From NCBI GenBank assembly GCA_016195715.1, contig JACPZA010000026.1, positions 20,222 through 84,221 on the forward strand: 64,000 bases of DNA, given 5' to 3'. This DNA is from Candidatus Daviesbacteria bacterium (lineage in GTDB: Bacteria > Patescibacteriota > Microgenomatia > Daviesbacterales > UBA10151). Below are positions 25,686 through 31,679 of this stretch, piece by piece. The notes under the pieces were generated by a model. It worked only from the letters and a program-made list of their open reading frames with translations. It was not told where the DNA came from and did no database searches. The position numbers and the translations under genes are program-made. How positions within the stretch are numbered: the stretch's first letter is position 1; every line of letters starts with the position of its first letter.

Positions 25686-26501
25686 ATGAAGAAATTTACA
25701 ATTTTTCTTTTACTGTTTGCTTTGTACATTTTAAATTTTAAATTATACATTCCTCTAGTTTTTGCTCAAACTCAATCAATTGATGTGGCCTCAACTCAAA
25801 CTATTGTAGATCAACAAGCAGTTGATGGAGATATTTTAACTTATACAGACAAAGGCTTAGAAAGAACCAATTTACCCTACTCTAATAAAATTTTTGGAGT
25901 ACTACAAGATAAGTCATTAATTGTTTATAGAAGTATTGATCCAAACGCTAAACCAATTGCTAGAGCTGGCTTAGTTTTAGTTAATGTGACAAATTTTGAT
26001 GGCTCAATTAAAGTTGGAGATTATATTACTAGTTCAACAATCCCAGGCAAAGGCCAAAAAGCTTCCCAATCTGGTTATACAATTGGGGTTGCTTTAGCTG
26101 CTTTAGATGAAAATGCAGCACAAAATATTACTTTTCAAAATAAAACTTATAAATCTGGTCAAATTCAAGTGGCACTCAGAATAGAATATTCAGAACTGTC
26201 TGCTCCTAGATCATTAAATAGTTTTTTTAATCTTTTTGGCACAGCTTTATTTACAAATTTGCAAAATCCTCAGCAATTTACTCAAGTAGTTAGATATATT
26301 GCTGCAGGTTTAGCCATTTTAATTAGTTTTTCTTTAGGATTTTTTACTTTTGCAAGGGCTATTCCAAAAGGTATTGAAGCAATTGGTCGAAATCCACTAG
26401 CTAAAAACGCTATTCAGTTTACTATTATTTTAAATATTATTTTTACTATTCTAACTGCTTTAGCTGGAGTGTTAGCTTCAGTTCTAATTCTTAGGCTTTA
26501 A
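25686..26501 (+). CDS. Fusion protein: signal peptide + ~190-aa extracytoplasmic domain + C-terminal F-ATPase c-subunit-like hairpin that lacks the ion-binding carboxylate
   Basis: C-terminal two-helix hairpin with loop GIEAIGRNPLAK (compare c-subunit IEGIARQPE); helix 2 (AIQFTIILNIIFTILTALAGVLASVLIL) has no E/D; helix 1 lacks the GxGxGxG motif; first gene of the atp-like operon. Confidence 0.55.
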   Translation: MKKFTIFLLLFALYILNFKLYIPLVFAQTQSIDVASTQTIVDQQAVDGDILTYTDKGLERTNLPYSNKIFGVLQDKSLIVYRSIDPNAKPIARAGLVLVNVTNFDGSIKVGDYITSSTIPGKGQKASQSGYTIGVALAALDENAAQNITFQNKTYKSGQIQVALRIEYSELSAPRSLNSFFNLFGTALFTNLQNPQQFTQVVRYIAAGLAILISFSLGFFTFARAIPKGIEAIGRNPLAKNAIQFTIILNIIFTILTALAGVLASVLILRL

Positions 26502-26548
26502 ATTTAAGCTAAAGTTTTATATGATCAAAGTTAGAAAGGAAGTTTTTC

Positions 26549-27244
26549 ATGCCCGAAATTATCCTTGGAGCGCTAATTTTAATTATTGCCATACTTTTTT
26601 TTAGAGAATATTACTTAAGACAAAAATTATTAAAGCATTTTGACCAAGAAGAAGCTGCTCGTCAAAAAAGTTTTGAACTAATACATCAAGCAATAGAGCG
26701 CTCCCAAGCTATTTTAGCTGATGCTGAACTTGATAGTATCAAAATTGCTGCTCAAAATAGCCTGCAAACTAAAAAATATGAACAAGACTTAGAACAGAAA
26801 TTAGCTAGCTCAATTCAAGAAACTTCAGGAGTTTTATCCAAAGAGGAATCTGGGTTTAGGGATAAGTTACAGGGATCTTTGCAAGAATTTGCTAAATATT
26901 TAACTGATCTAAAATCTAAAGCTGATTTGGCACAACAAAGCAATCAAGATTTAATTAAATCCCAAATTAATCAAATCTTTGAAAAGTTTGAACAAAATTT
27001 AGCTGATTTTTTAGCTCAAACTGAACAACACTCTGTTTCCACTATTGATACAGAAATTCGAGCTACCCGTCAGCTAATTAATACCTATAAAGAAGAGCAG
27101 CTAAGGTTAATTGATGAAAATATTATCGCTATTTTAGAGCGGACTTTAAGTTTGGTCTTAGCCAAAAAATTAACTTTAAAAGATCAAGTGGATTTGGTTT
27201 ACGAAGCGCTGGAAAAAGCCAAAATTGAAAAATTTATCAGTTGA
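26549..27244 (+). CDS. atpF: F-type ATPase subunit b-like (peripheral stalk)
   Basis: Single N-terminal TM followed by a long charged coiled coil; operon position before delta. Confidence 0.5.
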   Translation: MPEIILGALILIIAILFFREYYLRQKLLKHFDQEEAARQKSFELIHQAIERSQAILADAELDSIKIAAQNSLQTKKYEQDLEQKLASSIQETSGVLSKEESGFRDKLQGSLQEFAKYLTDLKSKADLAQQSNQDLIKSQINQIFEKFEQNLADFLAQTEQHSVSTIDTEIRATRQLINTYKEEQLRLIDENIIAILERTLSLVLAKKLTLKDQVDLVYEALEKAKIEKFIS

Positions 27245-27723
27245 TGGAAGATCAAATTTTAAACACAATTTTAAAAGATACTTATACTCAAACTCAACTT
27301 AACCGAAGATTAAGACTGCTTAAAGAGAGTTTAAATAACCAGTTTTTTGGTGTAAAAAATAACCTATTTATAGAACTAGAAGATCAAAATTGGCTTGACT
27401 CACTAGACAAAACCATTTTTAGTCAGTTTAGTCAAGAAAATTTTAATGCTCAGTTTCAGAAACTAGAAGAGCTAGGCAAACAGATTCCAGTCTTGAGTTT
27501 ATATTTAAGTTTTGATCCCCCACTTGAGGAAATTGCTAAATTGTCAAATTATTTTAGAACTAATTTTTCTCCAAACTTTTTATTCGAGATCAAACTTGAT
27601 CCAAATTTAGTAGCTGGGTCAGCTTTGGTTTGGAAAGGTGTTTATAAAGATTATTCTTTGAGAAAATACATTGATGATCAAAAAGAGAGATTAATAAGTG
27701 AGTTTAAACAATTTATTAAATGA
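27241..27723 (+). CDS. atpH: F-type ATPase subunit delta (OSCP)-like
   Basis: C-terminal IKLDPNLVAGSALVWKGVYKDYSLRKYI resembles the delta VDPSLIGG..I..GD.VIDGSVR motif; position before alpha. Confidence 0.55.
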   Translation: MMEDQILNTILKDTYTQTQLNRRLRLLKESLNNQFFGVKNNLFIELEDQNWLDSLDKTIFSQFSQENFNAQFQKLEELGKQIPVLSLYLSFDPPLEEIAKLSNYFRTNFSPNFLFEIKLDPNLVAGSALVWKGVYKDYSLRKYIDDQKERLISEFKQFIK

Positions 27724-30001: not shown

Positions 30002-30010
30002 TAAAATATT

Positions 30011-31384
30011 ATGGCTGAAAAAATAGTTGGAAAAATTATTGGTATTGATTCTCAAATTGCTAAAGTTTTTGTAGAAACAGATAATTTGCCAGAGTTTCTA
30101 GAAGTTCTAACTTCTCCAGAAGATAGCAGTGTTAAATTAGAAGTTTATTCAGAATCTAAAAACTTAATTTATTGTCTAATATTATCAAACCCTTTAAAAC
30201 TATATCGAAGTATGCCGGTAATTAGCACACACTCTCGGCTAACCATTCCTGTTGGAAGCAATGTTTTAGGAAGGATTATTAACTTGTTTGGTGAAGTCCA
30301 AGATGATAAATTAGGGTTCAAAATTCAAAAATCCCAATCTATTTATGCTAAAGCTCCACCTTTAAATGTTTTAAAAGGAAATTTAGAAATCATTGAAACT
30401 GGAATAAAAGCAGTTGATTTTTTAACACCATTAATTAAAGGTGGCAAAATTGGCTTTGTCGGTGGACCAGGAGTTGGTAAAACCATATTGCTTACTGAAA
30501 TATTACATAATATAACAAAACAACATACTGGTGTATCAGTTTTTGCTGGAGTTGGAGAACGTATTCGTGAAGGTCAAGAGCTATATCAAAGATTGCAAAT
30601 TTCAGGAGTTCTAGAAAAAACCGTCATGATTGTAGGTCAGATGAATGAAAACGCAGCAATTAGATTTAGAGTTGCCCTAGCTGCGGCCACTTTAGCTGAA
30701 TACTTTAGAGATCAAGAAAAAAAAGATGTTTTGTTTTTTATAGATAATATGTTTAGGTTTATTCAGGCTGGCAATGAAGTTTCAGCACTTCTTGGAATTC
30801 CATCTTCAGAACAAGGTTATCAAGCAACGATGCAAACAGAGATTAGCCAACTTCAAGATCGTTTAATCTCTACCCAAAATGGTTCAATCACCTCGCTGCA
30901 AACAGTTTATTTGCCATCAGATGAGACATCTGATGCAGCGGTTAATTCTTTAATGTCTTTTTTAGACACAGCGATTGTTTTATCCAGATCAATTGCTGAG
31001 CTTGGGCTATATCCTCCAGTTGATATGCTTGAATCAACTTCATCAACTTTATCTAGGACAATTTTAGGGGACGAGCATTTTGTGGTTTTAACTCAGTTTC
31101 AGCAATTACTAGATAACTATGACAAACTATCTCATATTGTAGCAATAGTTGGTGAATCAGAATTATCAGTTGAAAACCAAATTCTTTATAATAGAACTAA
31201 AAAGGTCATTAATTACTTGACCCAAGCTTTTTTTTCAACAGAGGTTAACACTGGCAGAAAAGGTGTTTATGTACCAAGAGTTAATACAATTAAAGATATC
31301 AAACTAATACTTTCTGGCAAACTTGACTCTATCCCGACAGAAAAGTTTTTGTATATCGGAGCCTTGGAGAAAACGCGTCTTTAA
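30011..31384 (+). CDS. atpD: F-type ATPase beta subunit
   Basis: [13 protein letters not shown] (Walker A), [32 protein letters not shown]; the DELSEED region is degenerate (SELSVEN). Confidence 0.95.
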
Positions 31385-31391
31385 AAATAAT

Positions 31392-31679
31392 ATGACTACA
31401 AATCTATCTAATTCACTTTATGTGCGCATACTTTCTCCAAAACAAGTTTTTTTTACAGGTCAAGCTGATTCAGTTAGTTCAACTAATTCATCAGGTAAAT
31501 TTGATTTTTTGCCAGCTCACTCTAACTTTATCAGTTTTATAGAAAACTCCCCAATTATTGTCAGAGCTAAAGATAAACCTGAGCAAAGTTTTAACTTTCC
31601 ATTTGCCATAATTTATACTGTCAATAACATTGTTAATGTCTATACTGACATCCAATTGACTCTAACTCCTAAAAAATAA
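31392..31679 (+). CDS. atpC: F-type ATPase epsilon subunit-like (N-terminal beta-sandwich only)
   Basis: YVRILSPKQVFFTGQADSVSSTNSSGKFDFLPAHSNFIS matches the epsilon pattern; the start is more likely the ATG at 31392 than the ORF-track start at 31323. Confidence 0.6.
   Translation: MTTNLSNSLYVRILSPKQVFFTGQADSVSSTNSSGKFDFLPAHSNFISFIENSPIIVRAKDKPEQSFNFPFAIIYTVNNIVNVYTDIQLTLTPKK

What the first reader, a model, noticed from the sequence alone, without database searches (positions are those of the whole stretch)
25686..31679. F1Fo-like operon with no a-subunit and a carboxylate-less c-like hairpin fused to a secreted domain
Seen in sequence:
- The operon order is [c-like fusion]-b-delta-alpha-gamma-beta-epsilon. 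No a-subunit (atpB) gene is in the operon or elsewhere in the window.
- The F1 subunits look intact. Beta has GGPGVGKT and GVGERIREG. Alpha has RPAIDMGLSVSRVG.
- The only c-like element is the C-terminal hairpin of the 271-aa first gene. Its loop (GIEAIGRNPLAK) closely matches the c-subunit IEGIARQPE loop.
- Helix 2 of that hairpin (AIQFTIILNIIFTILTALAGVLASVLIL) has no Glu/Asp at the ion-binding position. Helix 1 lacks the GxGxGxG packing motif.
- The hairpin is preceded by a signal peptide and a ~190-aa extracytoplasmic domain.
- Alpha has a variant Walker A (GDARSGKGS instead of GDRQTGKT). The beta DELSEED region is degenerate (SELSVEN).

Established knowledge: ion translocation in F/V/A-type ATPases requires the c-ring carboxylate plus the a-subunit arginine.

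Inference: this ATPase cannot work as a conventional ion-coupled rotary ATPase. It may be an F1-type motor with a stator (b, delta) coupled to a modified, externally decorated c-like ring doing something else, or a decayed ATPase. The c-like fusion shares an extracellular module with the giant surface proteins encoded immediately downstream, which suggests a functional link.
Basis: partly seen in the sequence, partly recalled or inferred. Interest (0 to 1): 0.85.

Follow-up and report, generated by a model that had tools for sequence, protein, structure and literature searches.

The report
Proton-blind F-type ATPase with external crown
A large group of ultra-small (CPR, Microgenomates) bacteria keeps a complete, apparently active F1 ATPase motor, but no channel subunit a was found near it, its ring subunit c has no ion-binding acid and carries a phage-decoration-like domain outside the cell, and it usually sits next to a giant surface protein, so it looks like an ATP-driven surface machine rather than an ATP synthase.

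Summary
Window 25686-31679 (Candidatus Daviesbacteria) encodes c*-b-delta-alpha-gamma-beta-epsilon.

- **No a subunit:** no a-subunit or second c gene lies in the 64-kb window or within 10 kb in 80 related genomes. Whole genomes could not be searched.
- **Not decay:** at least 409 species genomes carry c*. Gene order is conserved, and the beta P-loop, catalytic Glu, Walker B and alpha Arg finger are intact. Delta is a true OSCP homologue. Epsilon lacks its inhibitory C-terminal helices.
- **External domain:** it folds like the phage phi29 gp12 autochaperone and capsid decoration proteins. It recurs in two MerR-HTH/TM surface proteins in the window.
- **Linked giant gene:** an orthologue of the downstream giant gene follows epsilon in 37 of 59 loci.

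Best reading: an ATP-hydrolysing F1 motor that is not ion-coupled and drives an externally decorated ring linked to giant surface fibres. It is the closest analogue of the Mycoplasma F1-like ATPases but has a different composition. I found no published description. Rotation and the mechanical output are inferred, not shown.

The parts
25686..26501 (+). c* : c-subunit-like fusion protein (271 aa). Layout: signal peptide res 1-27 (25686-25766); extracellular beta domain res 30-176 (25773-26213); amphipathic helix res 177-192; c-type hairpin res 195-270 (26268-26495) with invariant GRNPLA loop and no carboxylate.
26549..27244 (+). b-like peripheral-stalk subunit (231 aa): one N-terminal TM helix, long coiled coil, strongly conserved C-terminal segment.
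   Evidence: Position in the operon and architecture. Weak profile hit to ATP synthase subunit b 9o19_X (E 0.0066) among coiled-coil proteins. No Pfam hit.
27244..27723 (+). delta/OSCP subunit (159-160 aa).
27720..29180 (+). F1 alpha (486 aa). P-loop GDARSGKGS, Arg-finger motif SVSRVG. Lacks the canonical ~20-residue N-terminal delta-binding segment.
   Evidence: PF00006 1.6e-67. NCBIfam atpA 429-459 bits, with the match starting at profile position 22-24. Family motifs and N-termini.
29168..30001 (+). F1 gamma (277 aa).
   Evidence: PF00231 5.6e-29. TIGR01146 1.2e-21.
30011..31384 (+). F1 beta (457 aa). P-loop GGPGVGKT, catalytic GVGERIRE, Walker [16 protein letters not shown] replaced by ESELSVEN.
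   Evidence: TIGR01039 atpD 471.8 bits, above the 462.85 cut-off. Family motif counts.
31392..31679 (+). F1 epsilon (95 aa): beta-sandwich only, no C-terminal helical (inhibitory) domain.
   Evidence: PF02823 5.7e-10. Family lengths 87-100 aa. Start codon read from sequence.
31854..42032 (+). Giant surface protein (3392 aa). Cytoplasmic MerR-type HTH (res 15-58), one TM (~res 122), huge extracellular region. Contains the c*-like module at res 2906-3027 (40569-40934), then coiled coil and a C-terminal domain. Conserved neighbour of the operon.
   Evidence: Pfam MerR 5.8e-13. One TM. BLASTP to c* E 2e-8. N-domain HMM E 1e-16. An orthologous ORF follows epsilon in 37/59 loci. Own promoter-like site at 31782-31811.
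57477..60176 (+). Second MerR-HTH (x2)/TM surface protein (899 aa) carrying the same module at res 463-549 (58863-59123) and a K1-lyase_C-like C-terminus.
   Evidence: Pfam. N-domain HMM E 6e-15.

Best explanation
This is a Microgenomates-wide derivative of the bacterial F1Fo ATPase that has given up ion translocation and works only as an ATP consumer.

Shown:
- A full F1 (alpha3beta3-type catalytic genes, gamma, a short epsilon) and a peripheral stalk (b, delta) are encoded together with a c-subunit homologue.
- That c homologue has the c-subunit topology: N- and C-termini outside, basic RNP loop inside.
- It has no membrane carboxylate.
- It carries a cleavable signal peptide and a phage-decoration/autochaperone-like beta domain on the outside.
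- No a subunit is encoded nearby.

Inferred:
- c* oligomerises into a ring on which gamma and epsilon dock through the invariant GRNPLA loop.
- F1 hydrolyses ATP and turns, or at least cyclically strains, this ring against the b/delta stator.
- Because no ion path exists, the work is delivered to the ring's extracellular crown.
- The crown interacts through the shared module with the giant MerR-HTH-anchored surface protein encoded next to the operon.

The complex would then be a transmembrane mechanical transducer for a surface function such as movement, tensioning or assembly of attachment fibres. This is analogous in logic to the F1-like motor plus giant leg proteins of Mycoplasma mobile.
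For: Homology and topology of c*.

Carboxylate absent family-wide: 0 of 120 homologues have any acidic residue in helix 2. In 145 diverse representatives none is at the canonical position.

No a-subunit or second c gene in the window, in 80 loci with +-10 kb flanks, or at the head of the b cluster where the operon is split.

Purifying selection:
- 409 species genomes and 423 clusters at 50% identity carry the family.
- Gene order is conserved.
- Beta P-loop is conserved in 60/62, catalytic Glu and Walker B are conserved, and the alpha Arg finger in 67/68.

The loop GRNPLA is the most conserved stretch of c*. This is expected if it still contacts gamma/epsilon.

Delta is a genuine OSCP homologue, so a stator is kept.

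Epsilon lacks the C-terminal helices that inhibit hydrolysis in canonical enzymes (role of the helices from established knowledge).

The shared extracellular module occurs in two MerR-HTH surface proteins of the window.

A giant MerR-HTH ORF follows epsilon in 37/59 loci.

The b-subunit membrane anchor is poorly conserved while its C-terminus is highly conserved. This fits loss of the a-subunit partner.
Against: - No whole genome could be scanned, so a canonical a subunit, or a complete second operon, elsewhere is not excluded.
- Nothing shows that c* forms a ring. Helix 1 lacks the GxGxGxG packing motif.
- The structural relatives of the N-domain, as I recall them, are trimer-forming proteins. 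That could favour another oligomer.
- Alpha lacks the N-terminal segment that binds delta in canonical enzymes. The stalk attachment must therefore differ or may be weak.
- A stator anchored only by b's single TM helix has no obvious fixed point for useful torque.
- The giant-protein neighbourhood is missing in the more divergent lineages (Gottesman-/Blackburnbacteria-like loci).
- There are no expression, biochemical or imaging data.
Confidence: 0.5

Rival explanations
1. Membrane-tethered, non-rotary use. c* is primarily a surface protein, perhaps trimeric like its phage relatives as I recall them. It uses an ex-c hairpin as anchor and docking site. F1 with b/delta is held there as an ATPase that powers export, unfolding or assembly of the giant surface protein. 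This would be comparable to the F1-related FliI/FliH/FliJ ATPase complex at type III export gates.
For: - Helix 1 has no ring-packing Gly motif.
- A giant secreted protein is a conserved neighbour.
- Alpha and beta also score against T3SS/FliI ATPase models, though far below F1 models.
Against: - Gamma, epsilon, b and delta are all kept in canonical order. They are only needed for a rotor/stator arrangement.
- The c loop that contacts gamma/epsilon is invariant.
- A c-ring is not a protein-conducting channel (established knowledge).
- No export-gate components are in the neighbourhood.
Confidence: 0.2
2. Still an ion-coupled ATPase or synthase. An a subunit is encoded elsewhere or is too divergent to recognise. 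The c* ring would bind the coupling ion through conserved polar residues (Gln/Glu at +10, Asn at +16, Thr at +23 of helix 2) instead of the usual carboxylate.
For: - Whole genomes were not searched.
- Polar residues Q244, S246, N250 and T257 are conserved in helix 2.
- 12 of 145 representatives have Glu or Asp in helix 2, mostly Glu at +10.
- Reviews assume CPR complex V is an ATP synthase or ion pump.
Against: - Every characterised F/V/A rotor uses a mid-membrane Asp/Glu opposite the a-subunit Arg (established knowledge; restated in ProAD).
- The canonical position is V/I/L/A in all members.
- The occasional Glu at +10 lies at the cytoplasmic end and is Gln in most members.
- a and c normally stay adjacent, yet no a gene is near c* or near b in 80 genomes.
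Confidence: 0.08
3. A decaying remnant of F1Fo on its way to loss in a genome-reduced symbiont, with no current function.
For: - Loss of the a subunit and of the c carboxylate.
- Variant alpha P-loop (GKGS) in this genome.
- CPR are known to have lost ATP synthase genes in many lineages.
Against: - Seven intact ORFs.
- The same order recurs in ~65 of 80 loci across several candidate phyla.
- 409 species genomes carry the family.
- Catalytic motifs are almost invariant.
- Gain of a conserved new domain with invariant motifs.
Confidence: 0.02

Closest known systems
Canonical bacterial F1Fo ATP synthase (nearest solved relative: Chloroflexus aurantiacus, PDB 9itj)
   Same: - Same gene order from c to epsilon.
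- Homologous alpha, beta, gamma, epsilon, delta and c hairpin.
- The Chloroflexus c loop is AIGRNPE versus AIGRNPL here.
- This fits the published view that CPR F-type enzymes share ancestry with Chloroflexi.
   Different: - No a subunit nearby.
- c has no carboxylate and no GxGxGxG motif.
- c carries a signal peptide plus a ~150-aa external domain.
- Epsilon lacks its C-terminal helices.
- Alpha lacks the N-terminal delta-binding segment.
- The DELSEED loop is altered.
Mycoplasma Type 2/Type 3 F1-like-X0 ATPases, including the Mycoplasma mobile gliding motor (PMC3369863, PMC8406192, PMC11864180)
   Same: - An F1-derived alpha/beta/gamma/epsilon set detached from ion translocation in a genome-reduced, host-dependent bacterium.
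- In M. mobile, as I recall, the motor works with giant surface proteins. Here a 3392-aa surface protein is a conserved neighbour.
   Different: - Mycoplasma clusters have no b, delta or c homologue. They use three unrelated proteins, two of them membrane proteins with 3 and 12 TM helices, and coexist with a genuine F1Fo.
- Here b, delta and a modified c are retained.
- The alpha and beta proteins score higher on canonical atpA/atpD models than on the MSC_0618/0619 or MMOB1660/1670 models.
- This is independent evolution, not membership.
Carboxylate-less or extended c subunits in otherwise normal rotors (from memory: Acetobacterium woodii c1, PDB 4bem; Alkaliphilus metalliredigens c copy with ~100-aa N-terminal extension)
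   Same: c-type hairpins can lose the ion-binding residue or gain an N-terminal extension and still sit in a ring.
   Different: - In those enzymes, carboxylate-bearing hairpins and an a subunit remain, so the ring still translocates ions.
- Here no hairpin has the carboxylate.
- Here the extension is a secreted folded domain.
Phage phi29 gp12 C-terminal autochaperone domain and phage/archaeal-virus capsid decoration (cement) proteins
   Same: - 11 of 119 members hit Pfam XM1_gp53_minor_capsid.
- The same module sits in fibre-like giant proteins.
   Different: - Sequence identity is only 10-18%.
- Here the domain is fused to a membrane hairpin of an ATPase, not to a virion protein.
- Oligomeric state and any cleavage are untested.

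Membership tests
F-type (F1Fo) ion-translocating ATP synthase | Catalytic alpha/beta pair with P-loop, catalytic Glu, Walker B Asp and alpha Arg finger | tested here: met
   Beta exceeds the atpD equivalog cut-off. The motifs are conserved in 60-67 relatives.
F-type (F1Fo) ion-translocating ATP synthase | Central stalk gamma and epsilon | tested here: met
   PF00231 5.6e-29 and PF02823 5.7e-10. Epsilon is truncated to the beta-sandwich.
F-type (F1Fo) ion-translocating ATP synthase | Peripheral stalk: delta/OSCP and b | tested here: met
   Delta. The b subunit rests on architecture, position and one weak profile hit only.
F-type (F1Fo) ion-translocating ATP synthase | c subunit: two-helix hairpin with cytoplasmic R(Q/N)P loop | tested here: met
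F-type (F1Fo) ion-translocating ATP synthase | Ion-binding Asp/Glu in the middle of c helix 2 | tested here: not met
   Aligned position is V/I/L/A. 0 of 120 homologues have any acid in helix 2. None of 145 representatives has one at the canonical position.
F-type (F1Fo) ion-translocating ATP synthase | a subunit (ATP-synt_A) encoded with the operon | tested here: not met
   No such ORF in the 64-kb window or within 10 kb in 80 loci, including a split operon.
F-type (F1Fo) ion-translocating ATP synthase | a subunit anywhere in the genome | not testable with these tools
Mycoplasma F1-like-X0 ATPases (Type 2/3) | Membership of the MSC_0618/0619 or MMOB1660/1670 sequence families | tested here: not met
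   Scores are 272-395 bits against cut-offs of 520-850, and lower than the scores for canonical atpA/atpD models.
Mycoplasma F1-like-X0 ATPases (Type 2/3) | Seven-gene cluster: alpha, beta, gamma, epsilon-like plus three unrelated proteins; no b, delta or c | tested here: not met
   b, delta and a c homologue are present here. Cluster definition from PMC3369863.
N-ATPase (from memory) | Lacks delta; has atpR/atpQ; gene order beta-epsilon-I-R-a-c-b-alpha-gamma | tested here: not met
   Delta is present and the order is canonical c-to-epsilon. N-ATPase order from PMC4154653. Alt_F1F0 NCBIfam models score below their cut-offs.
Phage decoration / gp12-autochaperone-like fold (N-domain of c*) | Fold similarity to solved members | tested here: met
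   [not shown]
Phage decoration / gp12-autochaperone-like fold (N-domain of c*) | Trimer formation or autocleavage | not testable with these tools
   Only single-chain prediction is available.

The most novel reading that the evidence does not exclude
Microgenomates possess a previously unrecognised kind of prokaryotic surface motor. An F1 ATPase in the cytoplasm rotates a proton-blind c-type ring. The ring's extracellular crown of phage-decoration-like domains couples the torque to a multi-thousand-residue surface fibre carrying the same module. ATP hydrolysis inside the cell would then move, twist or retract an attachment organelle outside it. This would be a rotary counterpart of the Mycoplasma mobile gliding machinery and the first F-type rotor whose output is mechanical work outside the membrane.
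Probability: 0.3. Interest if true: 0.95.

Novelty: new variant of a known kind. Interest (0 to 1): 0.85.

Why it matters
**Energy metabolism of CPR bacteria.** The 'F-type ATPase' scored as present in many CPR genomes is taken in current reviews as an ATP synthase or an ion pump. Databases treat sets lacking a/c as incomplete genomes. In a whole class of these organisms the enzyme very probably can do neither. That changes how their energy budget, membrane potential and pH homeostasis should be modelled.

**Rotary ATPases.** Mechanistically, this is a natural experiment. A complete rotor/stator has had the ion path deleted and a folded domain added to the outside of the ring. If the ring turns, this is a new way of exporting mechanical energy across a membrane. 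It is also a candidate for the machinery by which ultra-small episymbionts handle their giant surface proteins. It gives an independent second case, after Mycoplasma, of F1 being recruited for a non-bioenergetic task.

**Testability.** All seven genes are small and could be expressed heterologously.

Tried and rejected
- **Pfam on the 271-aa protein alone** gave no ATP-synt_C hit. Homology only appeared with a family profile, member-wise scanning and structure.
- **First synteny count was wrong.** It suggested that giant proteins neighbour the operon in only about 5-10 of 80 loci. My ORF caller dropped ORFs that run off locus ends. Re-analysis gave 37 of 59.
- **Hidden a subunit.** All multi-TM ORFs near the operon turned out to be ComEC, TatC, RodA/FtsW, EamA, LPG synthase or Wzy. 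The giant protein has a single TM.
- **Whole-genome search for atpB/atpE.** This was not possible. The third protein search was left unused.
- **'p1 alone' loci (L026, L037, L056)** are not evidence of F1-independent function. In one such genome the b-to-epsilon cluster lies 15 kb away on the same contig.
- **PHROGs** added nothing for the module.
- **Ten literature searches** found no description of this operon type.
- **Decay, N-ATPase and Mycoplasma-type membership** were rejected (see the membership table).
- **Ring stoichiometry or multimer modelling** could not be attempted with single-chain prediction.

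
Full report
**What is there.** The window is from a Candidatus Daviesbacteria genome (CPR, Microgenomates). The 271-aa protein is identical to NCBI HY025_04145. Seven co-directional genes occupy 25686-31679. Pfam and NCBIfam identify the following:
- alpha: PF00006, 1.6e-67
- gamma: PF00231, 5.6e-29
- beta: TIGR01039, 471.8 bits, above its cut-off of 462.85
- epsilon: PF02823, 5.7e-10

The second gene has the b architecture: one N-terminal TM helix, a long coiled coil and a conserved C-terminal segment. 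It has one weak profile hit to a b subunit.

**The c-like fusion.** The first gene encodes these parts in order:
- a signal peptide (res 1-27, conserved A-Q at the end)
- a beta-rich domain (res 30-176)
- an amphipathic helix (res 177-192)
- a helical hairpin (res 195-270)

The hairpin is homologous to F-type c subunits:
- A profile of the last 82 residues finds 12 PDB sequences, and all are c subunits. The best are A. woodii c2 (E 3.4e-4) and Chloroflexus aurantiacus c, whose loop AIGRNPE matches AIGRNPL here.
- 68 of 119 family members hit Pfam ATP-synt_C individually.

Topology also matches c. The secreted N-terminus places helix 1 out-to-in, and the basic loop (R224, K228, R235, K240) lies inside. 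This is read from the sequence using the positive-inside rule.

The carboxylate is gone. In the HMM alignment the c-subunit Glu faces a hydrophobic column. In the 120 closest homologues the tail from GRNP to the end is always 38 residues, and from memory Bacillus PS3 c has the same length. Not one of those homologues has Asp or Glu in helix 2. Among 145 representatives at 50% identity, twelve have an acidic residue. It sits at the cytoplasmic end (+10, normally Gln) or, once, at +16. It is never at the canonical +21. GRNPLA is invariant and is the best conserved stretch of the protein.

**No a subunit nearby.** The multi-TM ORFs in the window are LPG synthase, ComEC, a Wzy-like protein and EamA. 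No second c-like ORF exists.

I fetched 80 related loci with 10-kb flanks from species-representative genomes. In all, 409 such genomes encode a relative. The order c*-b-delta-alpha-gamma-beta-epsilon recurs in about 65 of the 80 loci. The other loci are truncated contigs or a rearranged arrangement. No multi-TM neighbour is an a subunit.

In one genome c* lies 15 kb from the b-to-epsilon cluster. That cluster is headed by b with LeuRS upstream, not by a or c.

I could not scan whole genomes. This is the main gap.

**Not decay.** The family has 423 clusters at 50% identity below E 1e-30. Across relatives:
- the beta P-loop is GGAGVGKT in 60 of 62
- the catalytic GER Glu and Walker B are conserved
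- the alpha Arg-finger motif is present in 67 of 68

Several systematic departures from canonical F1 are themselves conserved:
- The alpha P-loop is GDA[HR]SGKT. This genome's GKGS is an outlier.
- DELSEED is E[SEA]ELSxx[DN].
- Epsilon is 87-100 aa, a beta-sandwich without the C-terminal helices.
- Alpha starts about 20 residues later than canonical alpha, so it lacks the segment that binds delta.
- The b membrane anchor is poorly conserved while its C-terminus is highly conserved.

An HMM of the domain also hits residues 2906-3027 of the 3392-aa protein encoded 175 bp downstream of epsilon (E 1e-16; BLASTP 2e-8). It hits residues 463-549 of a second protein at 57477-60176 as well. Both proteins begin with cytoplasmic MerR-type HTH domains followed by one TM helix and a very large extracellular part.

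My first count of this neighbourhood in relatives was too low, because ORFs running off locus ends were ignored. Counted correctly, 37 of 59 loci have a large same-strand ORF starting mostly 150-550 nt after epsilon. It opens with the same HTH (KIGxAAKxLGVSIDTLRRWE...) plus a TM segment. This holds for nearly all Daviesbacteria-like loci but not for the most divergent ones. In the window the giant gene has its own promoter-like site, and no terminator-like site separates it from epsilon.

**How it most likely works.** Shown:
- a complete and conserved F1
- a conserved stalk
- a c homologue that cannot bind the coupling ion and exposes a folded domain outside
- no a subunit in reach
- a conserved giant surface protein sharing that domain

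Inferred:
- c* forms a ring contacted by gamma/epsilon through the invariant loop.
- F1 hydrolyses ATP. It is uninhibited by epsilon because the helices that inhibit hydrolysis in canonical enzymes are gone.
- The rotation or strain of the ring is used outside the membrane, probably on the fibre-like giant protein.

I give this about 0.5. The main rival (0.2) keeps ATP hydrolysis but drops rotation. In that reading c* is an anchor or dock, and F1 powers export or assembly of the giant protein. A conventional ion-coupled enzyme with an a subunit elsewhere (0.08) conflicts with the universal lack of the carboxylate. Decay (0.02) conflicts with the conservation.

**Comparison with what is known.** By descent this is an F-type ATPase of the CPR/Chloroflexota lineage. 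It fails two defining features of the ion-translocating family: the c carboxylate and an operon-encoded a subunit.

It works most like the Mycoplasma F1-like-X0 ATPases and the M. mobile gliding motor, but it is not a member of those families:
- Their models score below cut-off and below the canonical atpA/atpD models.
- Their clusters lack b, delta and c.

Carboxylate-less or N-terminally extended c subunits are known only inside rings that still translocate ions (A. woodii c1 from memory, A. metalliredigens).

**Novelty.** Ten full-text searches found no description of this arrangement. ProAD assumes that sets lacking a or c reflect incomplete genomes. Mahendrarajah et al. note only that about 30% of sampled CPR lost genes for a canonical complex and may have 'minimal complexes'. 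A 2024 perspective and a 2026 review still read CPR complex V as a synthase or ion pump.

I classify it as a new variant of a known kind: an F1 motor recruited away from bioenergetics. There is a 0.3 chance that it is a truly new type of surface rotary machine. Interest 0.85.

Noticed in passing
window 31854-42032, 57477-60176, 23404-23637: Two very large surface proteins begin with cytoplasmic MerR/HTH_17 DNA-binding-type domains followed by a single TM helix. The second has two HTH copies. A 77-aa stand-alone HTH_17/MerR protein lies upstream of the operon. Why a giant extracellular protein carries an N-terminal HTH is unexplained.
   Followed up: partly
window 27720-29180 and alpha genes of L001-L080: Alpha lacks the ~20 N-terminal residues that bind delta/OSCP in canonical enzymes. 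In 55 of 67 relatives even the maximal ORF adds at most 7 residues. The few extensions are Pro/Ala-rich low-complexity tails.
   Followed up: partly
window 31392-31679 and epsilon genes of relatives: Epsilon is only 87-100 aa (beta-sandwich) throughout the family. The listed ORF start TTG 31323 overlaps beta, and ATG 31392 is the likely start. Likewise delta probably starts at ATG 27244, since the NCBI product is 159 aa.
   Followed up: yes
loci L001, L003, L004, L006-L008, L012, L013 and others: Many species-representative MAGs carrying this Microgenomates operon are titled 'uncultured Gammaproteobacteria bacterium' (TPA binchicken/SRP assemblies). One is titled Saccharimonadales (L062). These are probably taxonomic mislabels in the records.
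   Followed up: no
window 42082-56507 versus L056/L081/L082: The block MreB-PEGA protein ... ComEC-ComEA-LeuRS-Wzy-like lies downstream of the giant gene here. In most relatives LeuRS is instead the divergent upstream neighbour of c*, and in one genome the block sits between c* and b. This indicates inversions around the operon.
   Followed up: partly
window 25773-26213 (c* residues 30-176): The external domain has a strikingly conserved stretch GDYITSSxIxGKGQKAxxSGYxxGIAL, with invariant D49, R93, D112, T115, S117, G121, G123 and Y131. This suggests a binding or catalytic site of unknown nature.
   Followed up: no
window 14595-18494 and 18554-22027: Two further secreted giant proteins lie upstream of rplJ/rplL: 1299 aa with a weak dockerin hit, and 1157 aa with fn3 and Big_7 domains. 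They do not contain the c*-like module.
   Followed up: partly
window 23701-25622 (minus strand) and 60230-62491: Cell-envelope glycopolymer genes flank the locus: a WecG/TagA-family transferase, a GT4 glycosyltransferase and a Wzy_C/TPR protein. In L081/L082 the Wzy-like gene directly follows epsilon.
   Followed up: no
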